Source of the DNA: Macrostomum lignano
Lineage: Eukaryota
Assembly (NCBI GenBank): GCA_002269645.1
Contig: NIVC01001681.1
Location: 124,001-188,000 of the forward strand
Direction: 5' to 3'
Length of the DNA: 64,000 nucleotides
The notes beneath the pieces were generated by a model. That model was given only the letters and a program-made list of their open reading frames with translations, had not been told where the DNA came from and did not search any database. The translations under genes and the position numbers were made by a program. Each line of letters opens with the position of its first letter. Within the stretch, counting starts at the first letter, position 1. This document shows, piece by piece, positions 1-61,231 of this stretch.

Positions 1-1521
1 TCTCGGGCTAAAAAAAGTGTCACCTCCTATGGAATACCTGCGATCAGCCCGGACCTGAATTCTGCGGTAACCCCTGGTGCCTTCATGGCTGGGATTCGAT
101 CCCAACGTGTCTGCTGACTCTCCCCACTGTATTGCAGACCCGGTAGTAACTGCTTTGGTTGCATTTGGGCTGGTGCAGTGGCTGGAAATAGTAGATCCCA
201 TAGTATCCTATTGATAGTGGAGTTCAGTGAGTATTGGAATGGTGTACTGGAAGTCTGGTGGCCCCCAGTGATCTCGTAATGTTTCCTGCTGCATTCTCCT
301 CCTTTAGTAATTCCTCCCCCCTGCTGTCAGTCTGATAGGGGAGGTGGGTGTGCCAATCAGCCCGACCCGGTAGAACGGCGCTCCTGCCCGACTTGTCAGC
401 CTGGCCCAGGAAGGCGCTATTGCGCAACTCTTTTCCCCTCTGGCCACTGCAGCCCACTAAGCGCTTAGACGCAGGGTTGCATGCAGTCCCCTAATGTAAA
501 GCCCCGGTACATAGAGTGCCACCCCAGTGCCCCGCAAGGTCAATAAGACGGGTTGACGTCTCTGGCAACTTGGAATAACCTAGATGGAGGTACCGCTGTC
601 TCCTGGTAGAACCGGGCGTTCAAGTACAGTAAAGTGGAGAGGCTGACAACTGTAGGACTTTCTCCGCCATCAGATAAAGGTCCCAAGTATGCTATTTCGA
701 GCTGCAGCAAAGGTGGAGTATCGGAGGGGCAAGCATTTCAGGAAGATACTCACTTAGGTCTGTTTATCCTAGGAAAGCGGGCGAGAGTTTCAGGCTTGTA
801 ATCCGCCTAACCTGAAAACTTCGGGGACAGTTTAGTCTGGACTCCCGCTGCGCGCCTTCGCTCTGAACAGAAGGGGGAGGTCTTGGTTTTTGTGGATTCT
901 GCTAGACGTAGGGGAGCTGGATTCCCGCCTTTTGTGAAGCTGCGTGTACAAGATTGGTAGTCCTGAGGTGGAAGCCCCACTGGACTCCGACGGTTTTCCG
1001 GCTGTGCAAGGGCAGTAAAGTGGGAGGACCTCCATGGGGATTGCTCCCGCCACTTGGGTTTTTGGGTCCAGGCGCCAACGCTTCTTCGTAGTAGCTTTCT
1101 TAAGGAAATGGGGTCCGGCGCGCAACCCTAGGGGAGAATTTGTACAGGTGCCGTAAGTCCGTTTACGGTCGGCATTTGGGTTCCCTAGCATGGCCGCAAA
1201 ATGAAGGTCAAGTCTCTCTGAATAGCCAATTTTTCCCTGTCAGGATGTGCCATAGACAACTGGTAGTGGTAGCCGCAGTTTGAGTCAGTGTGCTTTGCCG
1301 AGTGAAGCCGTTAGGACTGCCTAAATGGAATTATGTGGAGCCACCCGTTTTTCAATTTGTTTTCTTCGACGCCGCAAGTGTGTGGTTTTGTCTGTGTTTG
1401 TGTGTGTGTGAGTGTGTTTGTGTGTTTCGGATCAACTTTTCGGTCTTTACCTGTAGTTGCCCCGGTTTTCTTTTCTTTTCCTTCCCGGTGGTGGGTACTC
1501 CCCCAGCTATCCGGCATTCAC

Positions 1522-2967
1522 ATGTCACGGGCGCGTGGAGATAGGGTCGTAGAAGCTGTGTGCGCAGACGCCCCTGGTCAACCACCCTCGGCCGCTGACA
1601 CCCCAGCAGTTGCCGCCCCCGCAGCCGCAATGGCCGCAGCCGCTGGTAACCAGGTCCCTCAGCCTCCAGAAGCAGTAGTAGTTGAGGAACCAGATGAAGG
1701 AGTAGCAGCTCCCGCTCCCAATCAGGGTGGCGCAGCAGCCGCCGCTGCTCCCCCGGACGCAGCCCAGAATCCTCCTCAGGCAGTCCCGCAGCTAGGAGAC
1801 TTAGTTGCCGCTATAGCCAATGCGTTTAACCAGCTAAACATGGGCCAAGACGCCCAGAGGCCGAAAATCTACGTAGAAAAGTTCTCTCCCGGCGAACACT
1901 GTTTTGTGCAATGGGTAGAGAGAATGATCTACAAGCTGGACGCGGAGAGAACTGTAGGAGATCAGGCTAGGAAGCAGGTGCTCATCTCGCACCTCCCAGG
2001 TGAATTTCAGAACTTAGCCTTAGGATTGGACGGGCAATTGCCCTTTGAGCAGTTCGTATCTAGATTAGGAGAGCAGTTGGGCGAGGCCAACACTGATCTG
2101 GCTAAGAGAAATAAGCTGAAGAATCTGAGCCAGAAACCCGGCCAATCACATAGTGCTTTTGCTGCTATGATAAGATCTCAGATAACGGCCATGTTTCCTC
2201 AGATTCAGGGTGAGCAGAGAGAACAAGAAATCGTGTACACCTACTTGGAACACGCTAAGCTCCCCCGCCAGGTCAGACAAGATCTGTTGAGCCGTCGCTG
2301 GCAGACAATTGAGCAGGTGTTAGAACAGCAGCAAGCCCTGTTAGAAGCCGCAGACTTAGCCGGGAAATGGGACAGTAGTGGCCCGCCCAGGTCTGAGTCC
2401 CGCACCGAAGTCCGTCTGCAACCTCAGCAGCCACCCAGGCCCCCTCGCAAGTGGGTCAGGATGGTGAACCAGGAAGCTGACGAGACGGAGGAGGACGGTG
2501 ACGGCCTATCAGAGATGCAAGAGAGGTTGGGCGCGCTAGAGCAAACGCAAAAGGATCTGCGCAACCAGCTGGTGCAGCTCAATGAAACTATGAAGGCGAC
2601 AGCAGAGTCTGTTGCCCAGCTGCCCCAGCAGATGAGGCCCCCTCGCCCCGCCACTCCCAACAGGAACTGGAGGCAGGGGCAGGGCGGCTCTAATAGCAGT
2701 AGGAACTGGCGCCAACCCCAGCCCCCGCCGCTTGCAATTCAGGAGGCGCCCACGCCGCCGGCGCCGGGTGTGCAGCAGCAGCAATTGCAGCTTCGTGCGC
2801 CACCTGATCGCCATAGGCAAGATTTAGAGGAGTGGGGCAGAGATATGTTAGACGAGGCTACCAGGGAGAGGCAGGAGAGGCTCGCCCAGCTGCGCGCGCA
2901 AGCTCTGATGCCTCCTCCTTCCACGCCTGAAGAGCCCCCGGGTTCGGGAAACCCGTGGGAGGGCTGA
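1522..2967 (+). CDS. Retrotransposon Gag (capsid-like), 481 aa
   Basis: Uninterrupted ORF from ATG 1522. Segments KIYVEKFSPGEHCFVQW and KLKNLSQKPGQSHSAFAAMIRSQITAMFP resemble the Ty3/gypsy capsid pattern L..L.Q..GES...F...I..L...AFP. No CCHC knuckle. Confidence 0.8.
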   Translation: MSRARGDRVVEAVCADAPGQPPSAADTPAVAAPAAAMAAAAGNQVPQPPEAVVVEEPDEGVAAPAPNQGGAAAAAAPPDAAQNPPQAVPQLGDLVAAIANAFNQLNMGQDAQRPKIYVEKFSPGEHCFVQWVERMIYKLDAERTVGDQARKQVLISHLPGEFQNLALGLDGQLPFEQFVSRLGEQLGEANTDLAKRNKLKNLSQKPGQSHSAFAAMIRSQITAMFPQIQGEQREQEIVYTYLEHAKLPRQVRQDLLSRRWQTIEQVLEQQQALLEAADLAGKWDSSGPPRSESRTEVRLQPQQPPRPPRKWVRMVNQEADETEEDGDGLSEMQERLGALEQTQKDLRNQLVQLNETMKATAESVAQLPQQMRPPRPATPNRNWRQGQGGSNSSRNWRQPQPPPLAIQEAPTPPAPGVQQQQLQLRAPPDRHRQDLEEWGRDMLDEATRERQERLAQLRAQALMPPPSTPEEPPGSGNPWEG

Positions 2968-3008
2968 ATGGCCCGGCCCGAACTCAGCCCCGTTCCCTCT
3001 CTAGGGCC
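2946..3008 (+). promoter_or_regulatory. -1 programmed ribosomal frameshift signal: slippery heptamer plus predicted H-type pseudoknot
   Basis: G GGA AAC (2946-2952) lies in the correct gag phase. After an 8-nt spacer, GGGCTGA (2961-2967) pairs with TCAGCCC (2984-2990), and loop GGCCC can pair with GGGCC (3004-3008). The downstream ORF is in the -1 frame. Confidence 0.85.
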
Positions 3009-3470
3009 CAGCTTAACCTGCCACGTCCGCCCAGCAAGAAGTTTAGATTTGAGAAGGTACCCGATTTCTATCAGCCAAGACCAGCTAGAGGACAACGCGG
3101 GAGAGATATTGTTGTAGAGTTGCCAATTGAGAATGTTCCCACCCGCCTCCTGGTAGATGGGGGCAGTGCGCTGTCTTTGCTAACAGTCAAAGACTTTACT
3201 AAAATTACCGGACAGAGTGTGGAGGCCCTGGAGCCCCCATGTGTGAAGGCCGTGTCCTACACGGGCAATGAATTAGAGATGCTAGGCCAGGCCACCCTCA
3301 CAGCAGTTATTGGGCTAGAAGAGGTGAGAATCCTCTTTCTGGTCGTTGGCAATTCAGCAGCAGTTTCCCTCCTGGGTAGTGCTTTTCTAGCCAGTACGCA
3401 TGCTATCATAGACTATCGAACAGAAAAGGTTTACTTGCTAGGTGTGAGTCTCCCATTCGACCCCCGCTGA
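2952..3470 (+). CDS. Retropepsin-like aspartic protease domain, translated as a Gag-Pro fusion by -1 frameshift
   Basis: RLLVDGGSALSLL (active-site-like), VSYTGNEL (flap-like) and LLGSAFLAS..AIIDY (ILGxDFL-like). TGA at 3468-3470 with another in-frame stop four codons later, so no pol continuation. Confidence 0.8.
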   Translation, partial: PVGGLNGPARTQPRSLSRAQLNLPRPPSKKFRFEKVPDFYQPRPARGQRGRDIVVELPIENVPTRLLVDGGSALSLLTVKDFTKITGQSVEALEPPCVKAVSYTGNELEMLGQATLTAVIGLEEVRILFLVVGNSAAVSLLGSAFLASTHAIIDYRTEKVYLLGVSLPFDPR

Positions 3471-4056
3471 GTAACAGATCGGTAGCTAGCCAGTGATTGC
3501 TTAATTCCCCCCCCCGATTCGCGTGTCGAAATTTTGCTCGTGTTGCCCCGTTGGAGACCGCTTTTCGCGTATTTACGTATGCCCTCTATTACTCGAATTT
3601 ATGTTGTGACCTCGTGCTCGTTGGTGTTGTTTAAATATCTAAGATTTTAGCTCGAAAATTAGGCCCGTACAGTATGCGTTAATTCCCTATCAGTAAATAT
3701 TAACTTGGAAACTAGTAAAATTTCTATGGGTCTGCTCCACAGGAGGTCCTGCCCCGCTGTTCAAGATTTTCTGGGAACAATGGAAGTCTGGGACCGTAGG
3801 AAATTAGCACCTTTAGGTCTGATTTCGTGTGTTTGTTCACACTTTGTGAAAGTCCGATTTTGGGAAACTTTTAATTGGTTTCGATGAGGCAATAGGGGGG
3901 GCATTCAATGTAATTAAGTTTATCAGGCAAATGGGGCAGCAATTAGTTTAGAGTAGGCCAGTGGTTTAGTCAATGTAAAGTCAGGTAAGTAATTAAAGTC
4001 AAGTTATGGGGACAGATAGTTCAGAATTAGTAAGTAAGCATTAAGAACCACCAGCA

Positions 4057-4463
4057 TCAGCAGTTGGGAAGCCGCAGAAATAGCTCCAAGAGCAGTAGCC
4101 AGTGCATTGTGAGACCGGCTATTAGGGCCGTCGACAGCACGACCAAATGCCAGGAGCCGTCGGTCTCCACCACAGGGGTTGGCAAGGGCTGTGGAGCGGC
4201 AGCCACGGGCGTCACCGCGGCGACCGGCGGCGGAGCGTGCGCTCGGGCTGACAACGGCGGTGGTACCGGATGCCAACCGGCCCCGGACGCTGGTTCGCTG
4301 GCGGCCCGGCGGTCGCATGGCCCGGGAGCCGCGGCGCCTATGTCACCAGATGGCGCAGCCGGCCCAGAATCAGAGGGGGCGTCCGGCTCTGAATGGCTGT
4401 CTTCGGGCGCTTCGTAGTCGGACTCCTCTTCAAGGATGGGCTCGGCTACTAGCGGCCGGAATC
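4057..4463 (-). CDS. Candidate antisense terminal exon: acidic/Pro-Ala-rich protein with C-terminal hydrophobic anchor
   Basis: Acceptor tttcatcccttaaattctcattttcAG at 4465-4464, then an open frame FRPLVAEPILEEESDYEAPEDS...WHLVVLSTALIAGLTMHWLLLLELFLRLPNC*. The start exon is unresolved. Confidence 0.45.
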
Positions 4464-4554
4464 CTGAAAATGAGAATTTAAGGGATGAAATAGAAGTAGG
4501 GAACTAGCCGGGTATTAGGATGTAGATAGATGGGGATTTTAACTTTATGGCGTG

Positions 4555-4925
4555 TGGTAGTGGCCTTCCTGGGGGTTTCTTCCTTTCTTCATTCCCTCTC
4601 CTTCCCTTGAGCTCTAGGTGATCAAGTAGTGGTAGCCTTCTTCCCCGCCTTCTTTTAATGATACACCTCTAAGGATGGCAGTTTTTCGTCTTCCTCTCCT
4701 CTGGTAGAAGGGCAAATAGTGGCAGTTTCCCCGGGCAATCCACTCTAATTGGTGACGGGTTCCCTCTTTCTCTTCCCTGTTAATGTACAATTGGTGGCAG
4801 TTTTCCCTAGCAACCTCTCTCAAAATGGTGGCTGATCCTCCTTTTCTTTTCTTTGGTAATGCGCCAAGATGGTGGTAGGTTCCCCTTTCTCTTTTATAAT
4901 AGTACATCAAACTGGTGGCAGTCAA
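4555..4925. repeat. Degenerate array of ~9 units (33-47 bp) with core TRGTGGYWG followed by a pyrimidine tract
   Basis: Cores near 4555, 4626, 4673, 4717, 4750, 4792, 4826, 4870 and 4913; exact TGGTGGCAGT at 4792 and 4913. Confidence 0.7.
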
Positions 4926-5257
4926 ATTAATGATTAATTCCTCTTTCGAATTCTTTCGGCTGTTAAGTTTATGAGGGTCTCGGAGGCATGGATGAGAACT
5001 GCGTGCGCGTGGCGTTGAAGGAAGAAATCGAAGGGAGTTGGGCCGCATCATCATTTATCCTCCGGAGTCTAATCTCCCAAATCCCTCTTCTATTCATATT
5101 AACCAAATTAATTTGTGTGCCTGATCTGAATGTGTGCATGTGAGGTGGGAGTGCGATCTCTGTCGGCTGGAGTACGGATCTGCCGCGGGCGCGACCGGAG
5201 GTGGTCTCGGGTCTGCCCCCTGCTCACAGGTGAGGAAACAGGAAGCGGCGGAACCAG

Positions 5258-5374
5258 CCAATCAGAGCGCACGGAGACTAGAGCGAGCGGTCCCAAGCCA
5301 ACGGCGACCCCGGCCGCAGCAGGTGTGCCTCCCAATGTGCTCAACCAATGGGAAGCCAGCCCCGGCACTATAAG
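5258..5374 (+). promoter_or_regulatory. Internal Pol II promoter (two CCAAT boxes, TATA)
   Basis: CCAAT at 5258 and 5345, TATAAG at 5369, about 100 nt upstream of ATG 5468. Confidence 0.5.
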
Positions 5375-5467
5375 AAGACCCACGCCTGCCAGAGCTGGAA
5401 ATCATCAATCAGAGAAATCATTCTGTCCTTCAATCGCTGAAGCATTCTATGAACTATCCAGCTTGAC

Positions 5468-6816
5468 ATGGACACGAAGCCTACCATCAATCGAATTCAG
5501 CTATGCTCCAGCTTACCGTCTGAGCGTCCTGCCAGCCCAGTTAGCCGAAAGCGGCCCCGTGACGCCATCCAAGAGGCGGAGGACGGCCCCGAGCCGCCAG
5601 CGGCGGCCTCCGCCAGGGTCGAAGAAGGTGACGAGACAATCGACCCGGCCAATGCTGGGGGCGACACCGCGGACATTTCGGACCTGGCGGCCGAATTCGG
5701 CGAGGCGGCCCGCCGCCTGCGTGATGTTCTGCCCAACAGCCGCCGAAGTGTGGACATCGCCCTGCAAAGAGAAGAAGTCATTGGGGTCAGGTGGCTGGCG
5801 AACCTTCGGCGACAGCTATGGATCTGGTGCACTGGGTCGGGCCTGAGTCCTATCATGGCCCACTCCAGGCCGAGGACAGGCATGCGACTCTAGAGCGCCA
5901 ACTTCGCGACAACCTGGACCGGCCCTGTCTGCTCATCCTGTCAAAAGCGGCCCTGCTGGGATTGGTTGACAATACGCTGTTAATGTACATCGAGGCAGCG
6001 GCCCAGAGCGCCTACAAATACGCCCTCGGCGACCTAGTCCGGCAGGCCGCCAAGTTCCTCCGCAAGGTTGTGGATGAGGAACCATCACACCTGACAGCCC
6101 GGCCGCCGTCCTGTGCCCCCATCACAGCAATCTTCAGCACCTGCGATCGGCCGGTCTACAAGAAGGTGATCATCAGCTGCGCAGCCTCCTCTCAGATGAC
6201 TAGACAACTGACACCAACCCAGAGAGCCCGGCTATTGATTGGCCTGGCCAGCTTGGCCAGCCGCTGGGGCATGCTTCCTGCGGACCTGCCAGGGCTGCTC
6301 TGGGGCTTCCTGAGCGAGGGCGCCGAATGGGAAGAGGCTCTCGTCATCCACGACGGCATTCTTGCGGCCTCCGCGCCGGCCTCTGCGCCCCTCCTCTATG
6401 CGCCGTTTGCCACAGTGGCCTGGGCCGCCACTCTCTCGCAACGGTTCAATCGCCGCTGTGGGTGGGTGTTGGCGGCCCTGGGCGACGTTGAGCCCGGCTA
6501 CGCGGGCCTGGCCGAGGTGCCCCGTGGCACTTTGCAGCATTTTGCAATCGCGCAGCCGCCCCTGTCTGCACCAACTCTGACACGGCTGCAACAAGTACGG
6601 AATGCGGCCTTCGTCGTCCAATGCCAAGCCCTGGGCATCCCGACTCTGCCGCAGTTGAGGGGCGTGCTGCGCAACGACATCTTGCCTAGCCGATGGCACC
6701 GAGTGGTGCTCACGGCCGCGGCAGCCCAACGTTATGTGGAAGCATGGGCAAGTGCCATGGCTCAGGTGGCGGCATATGGCCCGTACCAGCTAAATCAAGA
6801 GGCCCATTTCGAGTAA
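5468..6816 (+). CDS. Unknown cargo protein in two overlapping frames (5468-5893 and 5791-6816); probably one gene with a frameshift or short intron
   Basis: The N-part is acidic with a basic RKRPR patch. The C-part is ~340 open codons, Ala/Leu-rich and helical-looking. No family recognised. Confidence 0.6.
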
Positions 6817-7158
6817 GGATGCCGACTGCCTGCTGAGCGACGTCCGCCGGCCGGTCCGACCCGCCTTTCCGCCCCCTTGCGTTGTGTGTTTGTCGTGTGT
6901 GTGTGTGTGAAATTATCCTATTAATATTCGGTTCTTCCATAATATTCATTTTTAAACTTTAATAACCAATATACGAGTCATTGTTGTGTCATTATCCTAA
7001 AAATTCCTAAAAATGGCTCTGTGTTGGCTGCTCACTACTTTTACCGTAAGAAAGGCCATATATTATTACTGCAATTGGCTCAGTTTAAAACGAAAGGCAT
7101 GGCGAGTGGGTAGATTTCGTTTAACGTACAGGCGAAAGGAAATCAGGTTGGTGATGGG

Positions 7159-7271
7159 ACTTACCGAGTAGTTGTATAGTTTGGAAAATCGTGCTGAGTG
7201 CCTTGGTTGGAAACTGCGACTCCGTGTAGGTTGCAGGCAGCCGGCTCCCGTTATCAGTGGCGCCTTTTATA
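7159..7271 (-). promoter_or_regulatory. Antisense promoter and non-coding first exon
   Basis: TATAAAA on the minus strand (7271-7265) followed ~100 nt later by a consensus donor CG|GTAAGT (7164-7159); no ATG in between. Confidence 0.45.
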
Positions 7272-7859
7272 CAGTGGCCAGCGCACGGCGCGGCGCCTCC
7301 CAGCCTACAACCGATCGCCCCGAAGCCCTCTGACTGGCTGAAGCGGGGTCCGAGCCTTCAAGGACGCTAGGCCTCCGTGCGGTTGAACTCCCGGCGAAAT
7401 TAGCTTATTAATTTACTGCGCTGCATTAGTATTTTTCCCCTGTGTAATTGTCATTCTCCCCGAGGCTCTGCCCTTGGCTGTGTGCTAGCAACCCTTCCCC
7501 CCTTCTTTTTCCCCACTTCCCTCACCCTTCCCCGTTTCCTCTCTTTCCCAGCTGCGCTTCTATCCAATTATGATAATTTATTGTTGACAATTCGCTATTT
7601 TTCTCCCTACTATTGCGCTGTCTGTGTTTCCCCCCTCCCACTTTAGCCACAGCAACAGTTGAAATTTTTGAAATTCTGTATTGCACTCCAACCTATGTAT
7701 CTCGTTTTGTGAATTTATTGCTATCCCCTCTATTTTATCGCCTTTTTCCATTCCCGCTCGCGGTTTGTTAATTCTGTGATTTCACGTTCGGTTGAGATCC
7801 CGCTCCCGTCTGTGTGGTTCCATGTTGGGCAGTGATGATGACGGAACCAGTTCCGTCAC

Positions 7860-7879
7860 AAAAGGCAGTGGGGGTGTGA
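7860..7879 (+). promoter_or_regulatory. Polypurine tract (plus-strand primer site)
   Basis: AAAAGGCAGTGGGGGTGTGA directly abuts the TG of the LTR. Confidence 0.65.
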
Positions 7880-10094
7880 TGTAACCACGCTCTGGTCGCG
7901 GGATAGGGCATGGGAACTTTTTCGAAAGTGCCTCCTATCCCGTGCACCCTCTGCACAGAGCTGTCGAGACTCGGCCAGGTCTCCGACCGGGCCTGGAGAC
8001 TCCCGCTCTGCTGCACCCCTCCTGCTGCCTTGGTCCCGTCTCTCCTGCCGCCACACCTGCCTTTCCGGAGCCCCTACCCCTTTCTGTACCTCCCCCTCTA
8101 CCCTATCTCTTCTGTTCCCGCCCTATTCTTCCTGTACTTTCTCTACCTCCTCCCTTTTTTTTGTCTCCCTCTGCACTCTTTTCCTGCGCTGTCCCCTCTT
8201 TCCCTGTGTCTACTTACAGTACTTTGTGTGCTCACCGTCTCCCCATCCCCTCTCAAACTCCCAAACGGTGACGCAAGTCGTGTGACCCCTTCTCCCCCTC
8301 GGTGACTCATCGATGACTCATCCCCCTCTCTTGCGCAACCTTTTCTCACGCTATTGTTCTCCTTCCCAAATTTCTCATGTGACACCCACCCCACCTCCGC
8401 TTCTATTGTTCTCGTTTTTGCTTCTTTTGTTCTCTCGACCCCCACCAATTATCACATTTTCTCCGATTTTCTCTTTCTTTTGTTCTCGTTTTCGCACCTA
8501 ATTATCACCTTTTCTCCAATGTTTACTTTTCCATTGTTCTCAGTTTTCCCCAATTATCCCCGATTTCCAATTCCTTTGTTCTCGACCCCAGCCCTATTGT
8601 TCTCAATGTTTGCTTGCGCAACACTTTCGCGACCACCCGCTGCGCCAATTATCCCCCCACCCCACCTCCGGATTGCGCAATTTCCCGATTTCTCATGTTG
8701 CTATGCCGGTCTCATGCTTCTCATCATGACTCATTCTGACGTCATTCTGCCGGCAGCCAATCAGAGAGAGGGAGCCATGGTAACGACCTTGAGGAGGCGG
8801 CTGTGAGGTCTATAAAAGGAAGCGATTTCGGCATGAGAATACTCAACTGAGGTTATCTCTGTTCCTCTCCTCGTCCTTCTTTGGACTTGCTGTCAGATTG
8901 AGCTCTGACCCATTCGTCTATAAGACGAATCCCTGCCGGTCCGCGGTCTGTTACCGCCAAGTTATCCTTAGCTCCCCAAGTGAGCTCGCCTATCGGCCAG
9001 CGGTCTGATACCGCCCAGCATCATCAGCATCGCCTGATCTACATCAGCGCCTCGTCGCTCCAGCGCATCGCCGCTTCACCGTCTGCCTGACTGCAGCCTA
9101 CAGCCGCCCTCGGTCACTCCGTCTCTCTCTCTCTCTCTGTGCAGCTGCCGGTAAGTTCCTGCTACTAATTTGTGCTCTAATTGCCTTTGCTTATCCGGGG
9201 TTTGCCTATTTTCCATTGTCTGATTAGAGAGCTGAGCCAATTGTGATACCGTATCTTTTGCTGTATTTTACTCAATAGTGAAGCCGCCTAATTGCCTGCT
9301 TATTTGCCTAAGGGCCTAATTATTAACTATTAACTAACTTCATCATTATTCAATCTTTCACCATCATTTCACTCATGGCTTACTAAGCCTTTCTCCCGGG
9401 GTGGCAAAGCATAAGGAAGTTTGGGTAAGCTAATGGCCTCTCCCCGTGCAAAGCCCGCCTGTGAGGGCGTGCTGCGGGGCCGCGTGTGCGTGCAGTAGAG
9501 GGATTAGCGAGTCTTGGCACAGAATGGCAGTAGGAAGGTTGCAACCCCATGCTAACGCGTCCCTTCGCCCTGAGCAATCTAAACTGTAGACAGTACATGT
9601 TCGCCTCATACTACTCTTAGTAATCAAAGTCGCAAGTCAGCCTCGCTCACAGCCACAAAGGATCCCCTGCTGAGAAATCCTCCAGGATTGAGCCCAGAGT
9701 TCCCGATCATGCCCCAAGCAGAGTCCCTGTACTCGGCTGCATGCGTCTCCCCTGTTAGCCTAAATCCCCTGGTAACCAATCCAGGCGGGGCTCTAGCCTC
9801 GAGAGGTCTGGTAGAAAGATCCAGGTGCGCCAGGTCACATAGAGTGGTGGCAGCCACTCGGTCATACTACGACCGAGTGACCAACTATTGCACCTTGGCT
9901 ACAGGTGGGGTCCATGTGGGTCCTTGGCCCTCTGGTCACGAAGCGCTACCAAAGCTACTAATCATGTGGGCGGGACAGTCTGGTGCTGGAGGTCCGTCAG
10001 GTCATTGCCCGGTCATAGGCAGCCTACGGTCATTGCCCCCTCTAGTCATGCGTTCGTCTCTCTACGGAGCGGACAGGCGACAAGGGCGGTTACA
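7880..10094 (+). repeat. 3' LTR, 2215 bp
   Basis: Perfect 7-bp terminal inverted repeat TGTAACC/GGTTACA, an upstream PPT, an internal promoter, and an abrupt switch to unrelated minisatellite after 10094. Confidence 0.75.
8727..8817 (+). promoter_or_regulatory. LTR U3 promoter
   Basis: TGACTCA (AP-1-like) and TGACGTCA (CRE) at ~8727-8744, CCAAT 8757, TATAAAA 8811; two more TGACTCA at ~8303-8320. Confidence 0.65.
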
Positions 10095-11224
10095 TCACAC
10101 ACACAAATCTTTCCAAATCCTCAAAACTTACACACACAAATCTTTCCAAGTCCTCAAAACTTACACACACAAATCTTTCCAAATCCTCAAAACTTACTCA
10201 CTAAAAATCTTCCCAAATCCTCAAAATTTACACACACAAATCTTCCCAAATCCTCAAAATTTACACACACAAATCTTTCCAAATCCTCAAAATTTACACA
10301 CACAAATCTTCCCAAATCCTCAAAATTTACACACACAAATCTTCCCAAATCCTCAAAATTTACACACACAAATCTTCCCAAATCCTCAAAATTTACACAC
10401 AAATCTTCCCAAATCCTGAAAACTTACACACACACAAATCTTCCCAAATCCTCAAAACTTACACACACACAAATCTTCCCAAATCCTCAAAATTTACACA
10501 CACAAATCTTTCCAAATCCTCAAAACTTACACACACAAATCTTTCCAAGTCCTCAAAACTTACACACACAAATCTTTCCAAATCCTCAAAACTTACTCAC
10601 TAAAAATCTTCCCAAATCCTCAAAATTTACACACACAAATCTTCCCAAATCCTCAAAATTTACACACACAAATCTTCCCAAATCCTCAAAATTTACACAC
10701 AAAAATCTTCCCAAATCCTGAAAACTTACACACACACAAATCTTCCCAAATCCTCAAAATTTACACACAAATCTTCCCAAATCCTCAAAATTTACACATA
10801 CAAATCTTCCCAAATCCTCAAAATTTACACATACAAATCTTCCCAAATCCTCAAAATTTACACACACAAATCTTCCCAAATCCTCAAAACTAACACACAC
10901 AAATCTTTCCAAATCCTCAAAACTAACACACACAAATCTTCCCAAATCCTCAAAATTTACACACACAAATCTTCCCAAATCCTCAAAATTTACACACACA
11001 AATCTTCCCAAATCCTCAAAATTTACACACACAAATCTTCCCAAATCCTCAAAATTTACACACACAAATCTTCTCAAATCCTCAAAATTTTCACACACAA
11101 ATCTTCCCAAATCCTCAAACTTGCACACGCAAATCTTCCCAAATCCTCAAACTTGCACACGCAAATCTTCCCAAATCCTCAAAACTTACACACACAAATC
11201 TTCCCAAATCCTCAAACTTGCACT
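10095..11224. repeat. 33-bp minisatellite (ACACACACAAATCTTCCCAAATCCTCAAAATTT)
   Basis: Direct tandem copies in RB1CC1 intron 3. Confidence 0.95.
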
Positions 11225-14823: not shown

Positions 14824-23898
<9,075 letters not shown>

Positions 23899-25670: not shown

Positions 25671-33741
<8,071 letters not shown>

Positions 33742-37661: not shown

Positions 37662-38228
37662 ATCTGTCCAATCATTCATCTCAACGATCTCATAGATCTA
37701 CTGAACAAACTCATCGATCTACCCAAAAAAACCCATCAATCTACACAATTAAACTCATCAACAAACTCATCATCTACTCAACAATCTCATAAAATATTCA
37801 ACAATCTCATCGATCTACTCAACAAACTCATCGATCTATTCAACAAACTAATCGATCTATTCAACAAACTAATCGATCTATTCAACAATCTCATGGATCT
37901 ACTGAACAAACTCATCGATCTACTTAACAAACTCATCGATCTACTCAACAAACTCATCGATCTACTCAACAATCTCATCGATCTACTCAACAAACTCATC
38001 GATCTACTCAACAATCTCATCGATCTACTCAACAAACTCATCGATCTACTCAACAATCTCATCGATCTACTCAACAAACTCATCGATCTACTCAACAATC
38101 TCATCGATCTACTCAACAAACTCATCGATCTACTCAACAATCTCATCGATCTACTCAACAATCTCATCGATCTACTCAACAATCTCATCGATCTACTCAA
38201 CAAACTCATCGATCTACTCAACAATCTC
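37662..38228 (+). repeat. 21-bp minisatellite (CTACTCAACAAACTCATCGAT), left arm
   Basis: Tandem copies; same unit as 39115-40605 in the opposite orientation. Confidence 0.95.
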
Positions 38229-39114
38229 CTGGATCAGCCCATTCAATATGCTGGTATTATCAGCAATCCGATTTGCTCAATATTAACGTGTTCAAGAAGC
38301 GTTCTTAATTGCAAGATGCCATTCGAATCTAACAACTGCCTAAGTCGCTGATCTGCTGGTACCCCCCCACTCTTCTGCAGACATCCCGATTGGGATAAAT
38401 ATTTACGCGGGAGCAAATCCTCCATCTTGCATCCTTCTTGCACGTGTAGGTCAGGAGGGACATGGATGCCTTAGGCTAGATATCTGGACTTGAAGCAGAT
38501 TATTGCAAATATAGATTTTAGAAGATGAAAAACTCGAAATAACTGTTTCTCTGTCTCTAGGGCTCCATGCCCGGGTTGGGGGGGGGGGGCTGTGGGGTCG
38601 AGCGAGGACCCACTAACAAAGTCTGCTGCTGCACAGAGAAACGAATAAACAAAAGACTGGCATGGCGCAGAAGAAGTGGTGTGGGAGGAAGCAGAGCGCT
38701 GTGATAGCTCGACAGGGATGGAATGCACTGGGGGATTTGCGTCCGTTGGAATCAACCAGAGCTTCAGCCCAACCTGCTCCTTCATTCAAAATATCCCTGT
38801 CTCACTCTCTTTCACTCTGTCTACCGTTGGTGGATCTTCAAAACAAACTGTCAAAAAAGCCCTCGGCGACCCATGCGGGATTTTCATGTCAGACCCCTCA
38901 TCATAGCGGGGAGTTGGGGCACTGGGCTTGATGGATTGGAGCGATCATTTTTGCGGTTGAAGCAACAGTTTCCGGCTTTGGTCTATGGATAAGCCTCCTG
39001 GAACCTCTGCTGGCAGGAGGATGCAGCATTTTCAACAATAACGAGGTTTAATAACTAAACTGAATGTTTGAAGGCAGTTGCAGTTAAATATCCTACTTTC
39101 TACAATTCAGGTAA

Positions 39115-40605
39115 CTTCGGTTGAGTAGATCGATGAGTTTGTTGAGTAGATTGATGAGTTTGTTAAGTAGATCGATGAGCTTGCTGAGTAGATCGATGAA
39201 GTTGTTGAGTAGATCGATGAGTTTGTTGAGTAGATCGATGAGTTTGTTGAGTAGATCGATGAGTTTGTTGAGTAGATCGATGAGTTTGTTAAGTAGATCG
39301 ATGAGTTTGTTAAGTAGATCGATGAGTTTCTTGAGTAGATCGATGAGATTCTTGAGTAGATTGATGAGCTTGTTGAGTAGATCAATGAGTTTGTTAAGTA
39401 GATTGATGAGGTTGTTGGGTAGATCGACGAGTTTCTTGAGTAGATCGATGAGTTTGTTGCGTAGATTGATGAGGTTGTTGGGTAGATCGATGAGTTTGTT
39501 GCGTAGATTGATGAGGTTGTTGGGTAGATTGATGAGTTTGTTGAGTAGATTGATGAGGTTGTTGAGTAGATCGATGAGTTTGTTGAGTAGATTGATGAGG
39601 TTGTTGAGTAGATCGATGAGTTTGTTAAGTAGATTGATGAGTTTCTTGAGTAGATCGATGAGTTTGTTGCGTAGATTGATGAGGTTGTTGGGTAGATCGA
39701 TGAGTTTGTTGCGTAGATTGATGAGGTTGTTGGGTAGATCGATGAGTTTGTTGAGTAGATTGATGAGGTTGTTGAGTAGATCGATGAGTTTGTTGAGTAG
39801 ATTGATGAGGTTGTTGAGTAGATCGATGAGTTTGTTGAGTATATCGATGAGTTTGTTGAGTATATCGATGAGTTTCTTGAGTAGATTGATGAGTTTGTTA
39901 AGTAGATCGATGAGCTTGCTGAGTAGATCGATGAAGTTGTTGAGTAGATCGATGAGTTTGTTGAGTAGATCGATGAGTTTGTTGAGTAGATCGATGAGTT
40001 TGTTGAGTAGATCGATGAGTTTGTTGAGTAGATCGATGAGTTTGTTGAGTAGATCGATGAGTTTCTTGAGTAGATCGATGAGATTCTTGAGTAGATTGAT
40101 GAGCTTGTTGAGTAGATCAATGAGTTTGTTAAGTAGATTGATGAGGTTGTTGGGTAGATCGACGAGTTTGTTGAGTAGATCGATGAGTTTGTTAAGTAGA
40201 TCGATGAGTTTCTTGAGTAGATCGATGAGTTTGTTGAGTAGATTGATGAGTTTGTTAAGTAGATTGATGAGTTTCTTGAGTAGATCGATGAGTTTGTTGC
40301 GTAGATTGATGAGGTTGTTGGGTAGATCGATGAGTTTGTTGCGTAGATTGATGAGGTTGTTGAGTAGATCGATGAGTTTGTTGAGTAGATTGATGAGGTT
40401 GTTGAGTAGATGATGAGTTTGTTGAGTAGATTGATGAGTTTGTTGAGTAGATCAATGAGTTTGTTGAGTAGATCGATGAGTTTGTTGAGTATATCGATGA
40501 GTTTGTTAAGTAGATCGATGAGCTTGCTGAGTAGATCGATGAGATTGTTGAGTAGGTTGATGGGTGTACTGAGTAGATCGATTAGTTGCAAATGGTTGGA
40601 TAGAT
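39115..40605 (-). repeat. 21-bp minisatellite, right arm (inverted relative to 37662-38228)
   Basis: AGTAGATCGATGAGTTTGTTG tandem copies, with an internal 735-bp (35-unit) block duplication (marker at 39181 and 39916). Confidence 0.95.
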
Positions 40606-51540: not shown

Positions 51541-52683
51541 TCAGCCGCACCAACAGGCGGCCCGAAAGCGGCGAGCAAATTCACGTCGGAATTTCTTAGC
51601 CACCAGGCAGTAGAGAAAGAAATTAGCAGAATGATTGGCGTACATCAGCAGCTCTGTACAGGCCAGGCCGAGCTGGTAGCGAGCATAGAACACAGTGTCG
51701 TTGTTCGTCTCGAAGTTGATCACGGACGACAGGGAGCTGAGCACCTTTAGCACAGTGATGGGCAGCGAGGTGAAGATGAAGAAGAACGACACCAGCAAGA
51801 GCATCAGCGTCACCTGGTTGACGCTCCGGCCGAGACCAGACGACTGGTAGCTGAACAGTGGGCGCCGATTAGCGTTGGTGATTGAGTTCAGCGAGCGCTG
51901 CGGCCTCTCGGACGCTGCCAGCACGCAGGTGGAGCCGCCAGCAGTCTGCGTGTCGGCTGCCGCCACCGGCCGGAGCCGCACCGACTCGCTGGCGGCGTTC
52001 AACTGGCCGGAGTAGAGCTTCTTGGAGATGTACAGCTTGCGGATGATGAGGATATTGCACACCACCAGAATGGAGATGGGAATCAGGGAGTAGAGGGAAA
52101 AATCCAGCCAGGCGAGCGGCTGCTTCAACGAGGCGAATCTCGGGCGCAGGTCGCAGATTCGATGGGTCCGGTTCGACCCCGGCCGCCAGTGAAAGTCGTA
52201 GACGTCCAGCACGAAGAACCAGTGGGCGTTGAGCAGCAGGCAGACAATCAGGAGGGCGCCGATGATGCGACGGGTGCGCTCAACCGCCGTGTTGGGCGTC
52301 GGCAGCTGGGACAGCAGGACGAACACCCGTTCGAGAGTTACGGCCGCGATGAGAAACACGCTGAAGTAGGTGGCCATGGTGGACAGGAAGTTGCCGCCGA
52401 TGCACAGCTCCACGCTGATGAGGGAGCAATCGTAGCCAAGCAGGCAGGAGATCCAGGACTTGAACAGGCCAGACAACAGGGTCACCTGGTCCGCTATGCT
52501 CAGCACTAACAGGTAATTGTGCGTGCCATTTCTTTTCACGTGGTTCTTCAGTATCCAGACAGACAGGCAGTTGGCAACGGACCCGACCAGGAGGAGCAGC
52601 GGACTGCCGGCCCAGCAGAGCCACTTGGCTGCCCGGAATTCCCAGTGCCGAGTGTAGAGCAGCAGGTCCTGATCGGATTGCAT
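51541..52683 (-). CDS. Class A (rhodopsin-like) GPCR, peptide-receptor type, ~380 aa, single exon
   Basis: Seven hydrophobic segments; GSVAN (TM1), LSIAD (TM2), TLERV (DRY position), FTSLP (TM6), NHSANFFLY (TM7) and KKFRREF (helix 8). ATG 52683 is the first in-frame ATG; the start is tentative. Confidence 0.92.
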   Translation of the reverse strand: MQSDQDLLLYTRHWEFRAAKWLCWAGSPLLLLVGSVANCLSVWILKNHVKRNGTHNYLLVLSIADQVTLLSGLFKSWISCLLGYDCSLISVELCIGGNFLSTMATYFSVFLIAAVTLERVFVLLSQLPTPNTAVERTRRIIGALLIVCLLLNAHWFFVLDVYDFHWRPGSNRTHRICDLRPRFASLKQPLAWLDFSLYSLIPISILVVCNILIIRKLYISKKLYSGQLNAASESVRLRPVAAADTQTAGGSTCVLAASERPQRSLNSITNANRRPLFSYQSSGLGRSVNQVTLMLLLVSFFFIFTSLPITVLKVLSSLSSVINFETNNDTVFYARYQLGLACTELLMYANHSANFFLYCLVAKKFRREFARRFRAACWCG

Positions 52684-53689
52684 GGCTGGGAGCGGAGGGC
52701 AGGTGGTGCGAACTCTAATACCAGCTACCTGAGACACAAGGTGTCATTTGGCAATTTCATAACGTAAAGATTTTCAGCCCCCCCCCCAGCTCTGTTTACG
52801 TGTAGAGCAAGACTTACATGTACGGAGTGAGAGGTATCAACCGAAGAAATCACTCTATTGAGAAATATCACCCAAGAGATTGCCTTCCCCTGGGAGATAC
52901 CACTAAAGACATGCGTGATACGATGAGCTAGGAGATCGACATTATGCTAAAATAAATTGTTTCTTTGATATTGCAAAGCCGCGATTAGCATACTAATTAA
53001 ACTATTCAGCAGAAGAGCTGATGCAATTAAAACAACTTTACAAGAGAATATTGTACGAATCTATATATACGAGCGTACTCAGTAAGCATTAATAGAAACT
53101 TACTTGAGCCAAGCTTTTTTGACAACAAATGTCAAGCGGTAGAGTGAGGAGGATCCTTGGGATTCTTGGCTGCTTGACCGAGGAATAGTAAGCGATAAGA
53201 ATTTGAGGGGAGGAGTGAGCAGTTTTATCTACTAACTCAACGACTTGCAAAGCTCATCCTGATATTTGAGCAGCCAATGACAGTCAGTCAGTCAGTCAGC
53301 AGTTCATAGATGTCCTAAACTATAAATCTGGACAATAAGCAAAGCTCTGACAGTCATTTTTATTCAAACTTCACGGACTAAAACCGCGATAGTTAATCAG
53401 CATCCAGTTAAACAGCTTTGCAACACAGAAACTTACATTGAGGATCCGTAGCACTTTATTGTCATGGAATTCTTATTTAAAATAATTAATATTATTATTA
53501 TATATATTGCTTTTCTCAGCCAAGTTCAGCCAACAAGTTGTGAATTCCCAGTTGGCAGCAGTACAGTAGATTTGGTAGTAGACTTCCATGCAGTAAAGAT
53601 CAGAATTACCTGCTTGATTTCCCTCTCCGTCTGTGTCTATGGACAAGACCAAATCTACTGTTGCCAAATGGCTCGATCAACTTGATTTG

Positions 53690-59695: not shown

Positions 59696-61231
59696 CTAGG
59701 CTCGCTTGGCCTCGCCGAACTCCAGCACGCCGAGGCCGCGGACGGCAGCGCGGCTTTGACGATTTGGCCAGCTGTCGCAGCCGATGAAAGCGAAGGCGCC
59801 CCGGCCGCGGCTGCACCAGGCGTCGGCTGTGGCGGACGCCAGCTTGCGGATGGCGGCGCTGAGCAGGTCCGTCTGGTTGCCGACGTCAACGATAACTAGA
59901 GACCTGCAGCGGGGAGGGGTCGTGCAAGGGTCTTGATTATTTGTTATTACTTTTTTATTTAGGGAATTAGGGAATTTGTTATTATAGGTCTAATCTAATA
60001 CTTTAGGGAGGGATTCTAATCTAATACTTTTAGGGATTCTGGAATGCAAGCCAAATACGAGGACCATAGGAATTTCGGTGGCAATTCGAGATATTCTGAG
60101 AGAGGGTCGGTATTTTGGGGGTTGGATAGATAAGCAGATGAAATTTATGTGTGAACTGTCAAGTCTCTAAGTCTTCAGATGCAAAGAGCTTACCAGATCC
60201 CACTGAAGGGTTAAAATGCTGACAAACTAACCGGAGAATCGAGGGAGATTAGCGATTGAAAGACAGATTTGAGAAGACTCAACAAAACTGCAAAAAATGA
60301 GTTTTAATTGGCCTGTTTCAAAAACTCACCTGCTAGTGAGCCCGTTGCACAGACCGCTCAGCTGATCGAATAGAGCGGCAGATCCTTCCGTGTTCCAATC
60401 CGCGCTTTCCGCGGCGCCCCCAGCGGAGTCTGGCGCCTCGTCGATCGGCGCCAGACGCAGTGCGATAAGCCGATCGCACAGGCGGAACGAGGCCTGCAAA
60501 GCGGGCACGTCCGAGCCGGCCTGGGCCATGACCTGCATCAGGCCGATCTGCCGAAGGAAGTCGCGCCTGTCCTGGCCGGCGCCGCCGCACACGGCCAGCA
60601 GGGAGCAGGCCCGCGAGGCGAACGCGTGCCGCCCGGGCCCGCCGCCGCAGACCGATCGGCGCCGTGTCGGACAGGCGAGCGGCGGCGGCAGCGGGTGGCG
60701 GCCGCAGCGAATGGCGAGCCGGTCGCCGAACTCCGGCCTGGTGTAGCTGCGCTGCACGCTGGCCAGGGCTAGGGAGCTGAGCAGATCGGCATTGCTAACG
60801 GCATCAATGCATTTGAATAGCTGCATGGCGTGGGCTGGCAGCGACTCAAATAGCAGCTCAAATATCTGCAGCGTCAGCTTGTAGACGTTCTCGACGCTGA
60901 CCTCGATGTCGGCGTTCAGAGCCGCCAGCTGGCTAGTGGTGAAGCTGCAGCACCGGCGGCCAATTGTCAGGTTGAGAAGCTCAGGCGCCAGACGGCTAGC
61001 TGTCTCCAGCAGGGTTGGCGGCCTCCGCTGCTCTCGGCGCCGCTGCTGAGGTGCTTGGCAATCTAGCTCGCTGCTGCACCAGCTGCTGCTGCTGCCGTAG
61101 GTGTTGCCGTTGCCGGCTGGGCCTGCAGACGAATTGGAAACAGCAGCGGCAGCAGCACCAGAGGAATTGTGGGAGTCGTGAGGACTCACTAGTAGAGAGC
61201 TGAGTGTCTCATCGTCATTAGCGTCGCCGTC
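59696..61231 (-). CDS. MSH4: MSH4-like MutS homologue, last two exons (61231-60330, 59903-59696), with degenerate ATPase motifs
   Basis: SFTTSQL..LN...VYKLT...QLFKCIDAVSNADLLSSLA..YTRPEFGDRLAIRCGRHPL and FLRQIGLMQVMAQAGSDVPA match MSH4 domains III-V. In-frame phase-2 splice; upstream exons unresolved. Confidence 0.8.

What the first reader, a model, noticed from the sequence alone, without database searches (positions are those of the whole stretch)
4057..7271. Antisense spliced transcription unit inside the element, ending in a tail-anchored membrane protein
Seen: a minus-strand TATAAAA (7271), consensus donors at 7164 and 5516, a strong acceptor at 4464, and ~135 open codons with an acidic tyrosine motif (EEESDYEAP), a Pro/Ala linker and a C-terminal hydrophobic stretch. 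The 5516 donor is phase-compatible and would fuse the minus ORF from ATG 5883 into a 257-aa product overlapping the sense cargo gene, although that match has a one-in-three chance of being accidental. Inference: a retrovirus-style antisense accessory gene, with the membrane anchor on the opposite strand from where env normally sits.
Basis: partly seen in the sequence, partly recalled or inferred. Interest (0 to 1): 0.7.

Follow-up and report, generated by a model that had tools for sequence, protein, structure and literature searches.

The report
Spliced antisense gene in flatworm retrotransposon
A flatworm jumping gene that lacks its copying enzymes carries, on its opposite strand, a three-exon gene that probably makes a small membrane-anchored protein, an arrangement known from plant retrotransposons and retroviruses but whose job here is untested.

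Summary
The antisense unit is real, but its structure needs correcting. It lies in the 3' part of a pol-less, Ty3/gypsy-like LTR element of the flatworm Macrostomum lignano. All cited motifs are present. The likely mRNA has three exons (~7240-7165, 5761-5517, 4463 onward). Its first AUG (5757) gives a 215-aa protein identical to UniRef A0A1I8G6W2, not the proposed 257-aa product. Of 12 public M. lignano gene models, 9 use the 5517-4463 junction, including one from an RNA-seq-based annotation; 0 reach ATG 5883. Exon 3 scores best in the EEESDY frame. A diverged copy keeps the acidic-tyrosine motif and the hydrophobic tail while the linker drifts. Exon 2 is an overprint on a sense ORF. Against: 7 of 12 models appear to switch frame within exon 3, both RNA-derived models are frameshifted, and no homologue was found outside this species. 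Best reading: an antisense accessory ORF (like plant aORF-3R, HBZ, ASP) encoding a tail-anchored adaptor; it is neither env nor a FAST-type fusogen. New variant of a known kind.

The parts
7328..7340 (-). CCAAT-like box CAGCCAGTCAGAG, 69 nt upstream of the antisense TATA; a one-mismatch copy of the box found before the LTR TATA and the internal sense TATA
   Evidence: 4 matches in 64 kb, all inside the element, 0.08 expected; the pattern was taken from two of the four, and the fourth lies in exon 3
7264..7271 (-). TATA box TATAAAAG of the antisense unit (predicted promoter)
7165..7240 (-). Exon 1, no AUG; 5' end only estimated from TATA spacing; donor GT at 7164
   Evidence: model P0002 joins 7165 to 4463
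5517..5761 (-). Exon 2 (acceptor AG 5763-5762, donor GT 5516), start codon ATG 5757; codes residues 1-81 (Arg-rich start), overprinted on sense ORF-A with shared wobble positions
   Evidence: models P0005/6/8/9/10 start at 5757; P0011 splices in at 5761
4057..4463 (-). Exon 3 coding part (acceptor AG 4465-4464): residues 82-215, stop TGA 4059-4057
   Evidence: identical to P0006 / A0A1I8G6W2
4405..4431 (-). Acidic tyrosine motif EEESDYEAP (the only Tyr of the protein), unchanged in diverged copy P0009
4087..4143 (-). Single predicted transmembrane segment (residues 188-206) followed by a 9-residue tail
3870..3875 (-). Candidate poly(A) signal ATTAAA, about 180 nt past the stop (no AATAAA in 3450-4060)
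5255..5377 (+). Internal sense promoter (CCAAT at 5258, 5332, 5345; TATAAGAAG at 5369) inside antisense intron 2, facing the antisense promoter
5468..5893 (+). Sense ORF-A, 141 aa, no family match
5818..6816 (+). Sense ORF-B, 332 aa from ATG 5818, overlapping the end of ORF-A and lying inside antisense intron 1; clear coding signal, no homologue found
1522..2967 (+). gag-like ORF, 481 aa; capsid region folds nearest to Arc/PNMA2 (weak)
2931..3470 (+). Retropepsin-type protease frame, with a GGGAAAC slippery-type heptamer at 2946-2952; ends in a stop, with no RT/RH/IN found behind it
   Evidence: (E=1.1e-7 to 'Retroviral-like aspartic protease 1')
7860..7879 (+). Polypurine-tract-like stretch
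7880..10094 (+). Inferred 3' LTR, 2215 bp, TGTAACC...GGTTACA, with CCAAT box at 8757 and TATA at 8811; no second copy in the window

Best explanation
A multi-copy, pol-less Ty3/gypsy-like LTR element of Macrostomum lignano carries an accessory gene in antisense. A TATA promoter at 7271 gives a Pol II transcript spliced 7165->5761 and 5517->4463 and polyadenylated near 3850. Scanning reaches AUG 5757 and makes a 215-aa protein. It has an Arg-rich start, a long disordered Pro/Ala/Ser/Gly region with one acidic tyrosine motif, and one transmembrane helix 9 residues from the end, so it is a tail-anchored protein with nearly all its length in the cytosol. Most likely job (inferred; about 1 in 3 if the protein is made): a membrane-tethered adaptor that uses the acidic/Tyr motif to engage host trafficking or signalling proteins on behalf of the element's Gag particles. 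It is not a fusogen. The reverse orientation is what lets the gene keep its introns and poly(A) signal: the packaged sense RNA is neither spliced nor cut at them (inference from how LTR elements replicate). The convergent promoters may also make this gene and sense ORF-A/B mutually exclusive. Shown: motifs, junction use in gene models, coding frame of exon 3, hydrophobic segment. Inferred: start site, exon 1 use, translation, topology, function.
For: The three-exon mRNA's first AUG gives exactly the database protein P0006. 9 of 12 models carry the 5517->4463 junction: 7 letter for letter in frame, 1 diverged, 1 in another frame. The last is BOX15_Mlig000729g2, from an annotation built on stranded RNA-seq (PMC5730564 section 31); it enters at the 5762 acceptor from a host exon and crosses the junction in a frame that no long-ORF bias would favour. 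A codon model that picks the right frame in 22 of 22 held-out 134-codon windows ranks the EEESDY frame first of six (-2.3 vs next -14.4); 14 of 2000 dinucleotide shuffles reach that score in any frame. Diverged copy P0009 (74% identical): 3 of 38 changes in the C-terminal part, all conservative, vs 19 of 58 elsewhere in the comparable parts of exon 3 (Fisher p=0.006; 0.048 after scan correction). In a 24-codon stretch that P0009 reads in a shifted frame, inferred changes fall at 8 of 24 wobble sites, vs 25 of 192 first/second sites in the in-frame parts (p=0.016). Hydrophobic segment: 38 of 6292 open shuffles reach it. Promoter box shared with the other two promoters.
Against: No reads, start-site or poly(A) data and no peptide were seen; the 7165->5761 junction is in no model (non-coding, so invisible in proteins). 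Only 6 of 12 models end at the LPNC stop and only 3 of 12 read exon 3 to the stop with no frame switch; 3 end in the alternative frame. Both RNA-derived BOX15 models (P0005, P0011) are frameshifted. The exon 3 coding score is just below the range of true coding windows (-0.2 to 25) and its margin is reached by 123 of 2000 shuffles. The selection signal rests on one diverged, evidently mosaic copy (exon 2 differs at 1 of 81 residues), so recombination could mimic it. The neighbouring frame also ends in a hydrophobic stretch (KD19 1.98; 134 of 4566 shuffles). Exon 2 is not independent evidence of coding. No homologue outside M. lignano (Pfam none). 5 of 12 models begin at 5779-5780, inside predicted intron 1, unexplained.
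Confidence: 0.55

Rival explanations
1. The spliced antisense RNA is real but works as RNA. Transcription from 7271 converges on the sense promoter at 5369 and dampens ORF-A/B and the genomic RNA by interference, dsRNA or piRNA. The ORF is a weakly constrained by-product of GC-rich sequence.
For: Facing promoters bracket ORF-A/B. Exon 2 is complementary to ORF-A mRNA. Many models are frameshifted. Gag, ORF-A and ORF-B were not found in the protein collection while the antisense unit has 12 models. Non-coding antisense RNAs of micropia and TART are precedents (PMC7264820); M. lignano Macpiwi1 piRNAs are mostly antisense to transposons (PMC4604429).
Against: Frame-specific codon signal, wobble-biased divergence and conservative changes in the hydrophobic tail; first AUG in frame with the last exon across an intron. 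An RNA role can coexist with a protein role.
Confidence: 0.22
2. There is no promoter of its own. The splice sites are used only when host transcripts read through an oppositely oriented insertion (exon trapping), or they are spliced-leader trans-splice acceptors.
For: P0011 is exactly such a host-element chimera. 38.8% of M. lignano genes are trans-spliced (PMC5730564).
Against: Perfect TATA plus the shared upstream box at promoter spacing. P0005 (Mlig001352g23) starts at the element's own AUG with no host residues. Flatworm leaders end in AUG (PMC12582326); at either acceptor that AUG would be out of frame with the 215-aa ORF (read from the sequence).
Confidence: 0.1
3. The main product comes from skipping exon 2 (7165->4463): either the 104-aa ORF from AUG 4318 in the neighbouring frame, which also ends hydrophobic, or a non-AUG start in exon 1 read into the EEESDY frame.
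For: P0002 uses this junction, and exon 1 is open in frame with exon 3. 3 of 12 models end in the alternative frame.
Against: The alternative frame scores -11.2 (665 of 2000 shuffles reach it) and its AUG is lost in P0009. P0002 is a 1204-aa chimera running on into unrelated sequence. 10 of 12 models use donor 5516.
Confidence: 0.07
4. One reading: a 257-aa protein from AUG 5883 on a transcript with no acceptor at 5762.
For: The frame is open and phase-compatible; 5 of 12 models start 18-19 nt upstream of the 5762 acceptor.
Against: 0 of 12 models reach 5883. That frame stays open in 10566 of 20000 codon shuffles of the sense ORF. From a 7240 start without the 5762 splice, many AUGs precede 5883.
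Confidence: 0.04
5. The protein is an env substitute or FAST/sORF2-type cell-cell fusogen.
For: A small single-pass protein in an env-less gypsy-like element, as with Drosophila sORF2 (PMC11952523).
Against: No MGxxxS/T start, no ~30-residue ectodomain before a central helix, no polybasic cytoplasmic tail after it, no signal peptide, no N-glycan sequon; only 9 residues follow the helix.
Confidence: 0.04

Closest known systems
Antisense additional ORFs between pol and 3' LTR (aORF-3R) of plant/fungal Ty3/gypsy elements: maize Grande gene23, rice RIRE2, Retand, PvRetro13, Boty (PMC7264820, parts 1-2 of 3 read; PMC11963269, passages)
   Same: Gypsy-type element; long 3' internal region; antisense ORF without homologues; Grande gene23 has its own upstream promoter; some Retand elements are non-autonomous.
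   Different: Animal host; three exons; product predicted membrane-anchored rather than nuclear or DNA-binding; no TRP28/Smc match; a convergent sense cassette nested in its introns.
Retroviral antisense genes HTLV-1 hbz and HIV-1 asp (PMC10186651, passages)
   Same: Antisense and spliced (hbz); predicted transmembrane with Pro-rich motifs (ASP); exon 2 overprints a sense ORF with shared wobble positions (that asp does the same on env is recalled).
   Different: Promoter has a TATA box and lies ~610 nt outside the LTR (theirs are TATA-less, inside the 3' LTR); one C-terminal helix vs two in ASP; host element has no env or pol match; no sequence similarity found.
Drosophila MDG1-group sORF2 / FAST proteins (PMC11952523, passages) and bdelloid transmembrane ORF3s (PMC5408684, passages)
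   Same: Small membrane protein carried by an env-less animal gypsy-type element; the rotifer ORF3s are expressed from spliced messages.
   Different: No myristoylation motif, no central helix with polybasic tail, no two-helix/Cys/RXXR layout; here the helix is terminal and the gene is antisense.
TR-GAG non-autonomous LTR elements (PMC8704663, passages)
   Same: LTR element with an intact gag and no RT or integrase.
   Different: Keeps a protease frame and carries three extra ORFs; whether the whole family lacks pol could not be tested.
Alphaherpesvirus US9-type tail-anchored adaptors (recalled, no call)
   Same: Cytosolic N-terminus, acidic cluster with tyrosine, C-terminal anchor.
   Different: Analogy of layout only; no sequence match in any search.

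Membership tests
Ty3/gypsy LTR retrotransposon (host element) | LTR with TG...CA ends preceded by a polypurine tract | tested here: met
   7880-10094 with a 7-bp terminal inverted repeat; purine tract 7860-7879; inferred from one copy
Ty3/gypsy LTR retrotransposon (host element) | Paired LTRs, PBS and target-site duplication | not testable with these tools
   The 5' end lies outside the window; no second LTR copy
Ty3/gypsy LTR retrotransposon (host element) | Capsid fold in Gag | tested here: inconclusive
   Single-sequence model pLDDT 66; Foldseek top 5 all Arc/PNMA2, best E=0.065; VIA Z 6.3, rmsd 5.8, 138 aligned to Arc, tied with unrelated hits
Ty3/gypsy LTR retrotransposon (host element) | Retropepsin protease after gag | tested here: met
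   E=1.1e-7 to PDB 'Retroviral-like aspartic protease 1'; Pfam gag-asp_proteas E=0.021
Ty3/gypsy LTR retrotransposon (host element) | RT, RNase H and integrase in pol | tested here: not met
   No Pfam match at E<=0.1 in six frames of 3471-7879 read through stops; this copy is non-autonomous and cannot be placed in an RT clade
Antisense additional ORF (aORF-3R) | ORF antisense to gag, between the pol position and the 3' LTR | tested here: met
Antisense additional ORF (aORF-3R) | Transcribed from its own promoter | tested here: inconclusive
   TATA and upstream box; RNA-derived models exist but no 5'-end data
Antisense additional ORF (aORF-3R) | Conserved in most copies of the family | tested here: inconclusive
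   6 of 12 models end at the same stop, 7 show frame switches in exon 3; no DNA of the copies available
Retand-type aORF | TRP28 (PF04195) or Smc domain | tested here: not met
   No Pfam match for P0006 or P0009
Retroviral antisense gene (hbz/asp type) | TATA-less promoter inside the 3' LTR | tested here: not met
   The predicted promoter has TATA at 7271, 609 nt before the LTR start at 7880; further LTR-driven antisense starts were not tested
Retroviral antisense gene (hbz/asp type) | Spliced antisense transcript | tested here: met
   9 of 12 models carry the junction; indirect, no reads seen
env glycoprotein | Signal peptide and large ectodomain before a C-terminal anchor; sense orientation | tested here: not met
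   Best 9-residue KD in the first 38 residues is 1.0; no sequon; 2 Cys; antisense
sORF2/FAST fusogen | Short ectodomain, central helix, polybasic cytoplasmic region, usually MGxxxS/T | tested here: not met
   Starts MST; helix at 188-206; tail ELFLRLPNC; features from PMC11952523
Tail-anchored protein | Single hydrophobic helix near the C-terminus and no signal sequence | tested here: met
   KD19 windows >=1.6 start only at residues 186-194; hydropathy only, no dedicated TM or signal predictor available
Tail-anchored protein | Post-translational insertion with cytosolic N-terminus | not testable with these tools
   Needs an experiment

The most novel reading that the evidence does not exclude
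A family of pol-less gypsy-like elements in a regenerating flatworm has evolved two nested, convergent accessory transcription units. The spliced antisense one makes a tail-anchored adaptor that docks Gag particles on membranes and lets element RNA pass between cells (for example soma to neoblasts or germline) without env or a FAST-type fusogen; the facing promoters switch between this mode and the sense ORF-A/B programme.
Probability: 0.08. Interest if true: 0.8.

Novelty: new variant of a known kind. Interest (0 to 1): 0.5.

Why it matters
Antisense accessory ORFs of LTR retrotransposons are described mainly in plants and their function is open; the review read here asks for a search for antisense and spliced transcripts (PMC7264820). 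A multi-exon, apparently expressed, membrane-targeted example in an animal with transgenesis and RNAi makes the question testable. The published M. lignano LTR catalogue starts from RT hits (PMC12801592), so pol-less copies like this one fall outside it. Exon 2 is a clean case of overprinting on a sense ORF, and one copy appears to trap the exons of a host gene. If the protein proves unselected, it remains an ordinary antisense RNA of a transposon.

Tried and rejected
No relatives for ORF-B: word-index search, ESM Atlas, PDB sequences (best E=0.56); its single-sequence fold was unusable (pLDDT 40) and was not searched. No relatives for Gag residues 80-300 or in PDB sequences. Exact look-ups of 9 window ORFs: 0 of 9 present. 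Atlas features search of P0006: no usable hit. Rfam: 0; tRNA: 0. 'Mlig001352' in paper text: 0; in supplements of PMC12801592 and PMC7806878: 0 (the second table holds Mlig ids but looks like a subset). Paper searches found no description of this element or of a spliced antisense tail-anchored gene in a retrotransposon; subscription journals, bioRxiv supplements and the earlier M. lignano LTR classification cited in PMC12801592 were not seen. UniRef names on the hits (US8A, GPS, BON, LigA, ORF3) are not supported by Pfam for P0006 or P0009 and were ignored. The second minus-strand TATAAAAG at 4898 was set aside as probably chance (no donor follows; the scan found GGTAAG only at 7165 and 5517). 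No complex prediction was sent, as there is no specific partner. The bacterial/archaeal genome, phage and plasmid collections were not searched as irrelevant to a flatworm element; viral and metagenome contig collections stayed unchecked. No eukaryotic genome collection was available, so copy DNA, copy number and true dN/dS remain open.
Full report
Setting. The first 10.1 kb of the window is the 3' part of an LTR element. It has a 481-aa gag-like ORF (1522-2967), a protease frame entered near a GGGAAAC heptamer and ending at 3470, about 4.4 kb of 3' internal sequence, a purine tract, and an inferred 2215-bp LTR with TGTAACC...GGTTACA ends. No second LTR lies in the window. The protease matches PDB 'Retroviral-like aspartic protease 1' at E=1.1e-7. 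A single-sequence model of the capsid region (pLDDT 66) finds Arc and PNMA2 in the top five Foldseek rows, none at E<=0.001, and Arc at Z 6.3, tied with unrelated folds. Six-frame Pfam scans through stops find no RT, RNase H, integrase or env. So this copy is a non-autonomous, Ty3/gypsy-like element (that Arc and PNMA derive from gypsy Gag is recalled). The host is Macrostomum lignano: every homologue found is a named record of that species, and the window's spliced product equals one of them letter for letter.

Observation. Against block shuffles only the TATA motif stands out (2 vs 0.09; P=0.006); the donors (2 vs 0.74) and a strict acceptor pattern (1 vs 0.16) do not. A 13-base CCAAT-type box found before the LTR TATA and the internal sense TATA recurs with one mismatch 69 nt upstream of the antisense TATA; a fourth match lies in exon 3.

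External evidence for splicing. Exon 3 searched against 1.84 billion representatives gave 5 hits; cluster look-ups and a search with P0006 extended these to 12 proteins, all from M. lignano. Mapped back to the window: 10 of 12 use donor 5516, 10 of 12 use acceptor 4464, and 9 use the two together. P0005 has the same intron shifted by about 10 nt at both ends, P0003 uses a later acceptor, and P0002 joins 7165 to 4463. Five start at ATG 5757, five start at 5779-5780, one (P0011) enters at the 5762 acceptor from a host exon, and none reaches 5883. Joining 7165->5761 and 5517->4463 makes 5757 the first AUG and yields P0006 exactly, 215 aa. P0005 and P0011 are BOX15_Mlig models; that annotation was assembled from stranded RNA-seq, discarded the weaker strand at five-fold difference, and gave clustered transcripts one name prefix (PMC5730564 section 31). 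The suffix g23 suggests at least 23 loci in the cluster (my inference). P0011 crosses the junction in a frame that stops ten codons later, so the junction was not chosen to lengthen an ORF. The other ten carry A0A1I8 accessions, which I recall as gene models of the earlier PacBio-only assembly; how much RNA evidence they used I could not check.

Is it coding? A three-periodic model trained on window genes picked the right frame in 22 of 22 held-out 134-codon windows and 41 of 43 81-codon windows. For exon 3 it ranks the EEESDY frame first (-2.3; next -14.4); 14 of 2000 dinucleotide shuffles reach that score in any frame, but 123 of 2000 reach the margin, and the score sits just below the range of true coding windows. 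For exon 2 the sense ORF-A frame wins (+3.4 vs -16.0), and the antisense frame, which shares wobble positions with ORF-A, stays open in 84% of codon-order shuffles: exon 2 is borrowed. The diverged copy P0009 (74% identity) keeps EEESDYEAPE unchanged and has 3 conservative changes in the last 38 residues against 19 in 58 elsewhere (p=0.006; 0.048 scan-corrected). A stretch of it read in the neighbouring frame exposes wobble positions: 8 of 24 changed against 25 of 192 first/second positions in the in-frame parts (p=0.016; one boundary codon left out, and two codons needing two changes counted at both positions). The alternative AUG 4318 is lost in it. About ten deleted codons of P0009 were not compared. 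Caveats: one copy, evidently mosaic, and no DNA.

Against. Only 6 of 12 models end at the LPNC stop, only 3 read exon 3 to the stop without a frame switch, and 7 show a switch in exon 3 (for P0004 this rests on its last residue); both RNA-derived models are shifted. The switch points mostly differ between models, and several lie at G/C runs. That fits assembly error (31.9% and 64.0% error-free bases for the two assemblies) and the removal of repeat-overlapping transcripts from the GenBank set, but decayed copies fit too. The neighbouring frame also ends hydrophobic (134 of 4566 shuffles), so a hydrophobic tail alone is weak evidence, though the real one is rarer (38 of 6292).

How it most likely works. 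A Pol II promoter outside the 3' LTR fires backwards through the sense cassette. Two introns remove ORF-B and the sense promoter region, and ATTAAA at 3875 ends the RNA before the protease gene. The product has one hydrophobic helix (188-206), no signal-like segment and no glycan sequon, and is 57% Pro/Ala/Ser/Gly over residues 1-180: a tail-anchored protein with a disordered cytosolic body. The conserved parts are the anchor and the acidic Tyr motif, the layout of a membrane adaptor (that such motifs bind SH2 domains or sorting adaptors is recalled). Reverse orientation protects introns and the poly(A) signal from being used on the packaged RNA (inference). Confidence 0.55 that a selected tail-anchored protein is made; rivals: regulatory RNA 0.22, exon trap or trans-splice only 0.10, exon-skipped product 0.07, 257-aa form 0.04, fusogen 0.04.

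Comparison and novelty. Antisense ORFs between pol and the 3' LTR are established in plant and fungal gypsy elements, with unknown function and nuclear or DNA-binding hints (PMC7264820; PMC11963269). Retroviruses have spliced (hbz) and transmembrane (asp) antisense genes driven from TATA-less 3' LTR promoters (PMC10186651). Animal gypsy elements carry small membrane proteins (sORF2, PMC11952523; rotifer ORF3s, PMC5408684). This unit works like an aORF-3R, fails the defining tests for env, FAST/sORF2, Retand TRP28 and LTR-driven retroviral antisense genes, and combines an animal host, three exons, a tail anchor and a nested convergent cassette in a way my searches did not find in print. The M. 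lignano LTR catalogue is RT-seeded (PMC12801592). Verdict: new variant of a known kind, interest 0.5.

What was read: PMC12801592 parts 1-3 of 6 plus a supplement search; PMC7264820 parts 1-2 of 3; PMC5730564 passages and section 31; passages only of PMC4604429, PMC11952523, PMC8704663, PMC11963269, PMC5408684, PMC10186651, PMC12582326, PMC13524379 (nothing on this element) and PMC8629364 (nothing useful); PMC7806878 supplement searches only. Unseen expression tables and bioRxiv supplements may list Mlig001352.

Noticed in passing
P0011 (BOX15_Mlig000729g2): A host sulfotransferase-like gene (Pfam Sulfotransfer_1 E=0.012) is spliced onto the element's exon 2 and exon 3 and ends early: apparent exon trapping by another copy of this element.
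   Followed up: partly
window 5779-5780 (-), models P0001, P0003, P0004, P0007, P0012: 5 of 12 models begin at the same spot 18-19 nt upstream of the 5762 acceptor, with no AG there; a repeat-mask edge, alignment artefact or alternative 5' end. Unexplained.
   Followed up: partly
window 5255-6816 (+): Orphan sense cassette with its own CCAAT/TATA promoter: ORF-A (141 aa) and ORF-B (332 aa) overlap by 76 nt in different frames; no AATAAA/ATTAAA in 6816-7300, so its RNA may run to the 3' LTR. Bicistronic, recoded or broken is undecided.
   Followed up: partly
window 9151 and 1455-1456 (+): A donor (CCG|GTAAGT) downstream of the LTR TATA and an acceptor (CTGTAG) before the gag start suggest a spliced leader-to-gag RNA from the 5' LTR.
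   Followed up: no
window 14824-23898 (+): Host p97/VCP gene, 8 exons, 792 aa, with a 17-nt first coding exon and a 4.7-kb first intron.
   Followed up: yes
window ~16570-17070 (+): Degenerate Tc1/mariner-type transposase remnant in the first VCP intron (Pfam Transposase_1 E=5e-24).
   Followed up: partly
window 51541-52743 (-) and 60326-61231 (-): An uninterrupted rhodopsin-family GPCR ORF and a MutS-domain-V-like exon.
   Followed up: no
window 10097-11216, 26601-29012, 37758-38235, 39120-40587: Many minisatellite arrays; the element's LTR abuts a 33-bp array, and two 21-bp arrays lie in inverted orientation.
   Followed up: no
P0006 / P0009: The antisense protein has no lysine and a single tyrosine in both variants; the first 26 residues carry net charge +7 to +8 and no acidic residue (could act as a nuclear or mitochondrial targeting stretch, or be a by-product of overprinting).
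   Followed up: no
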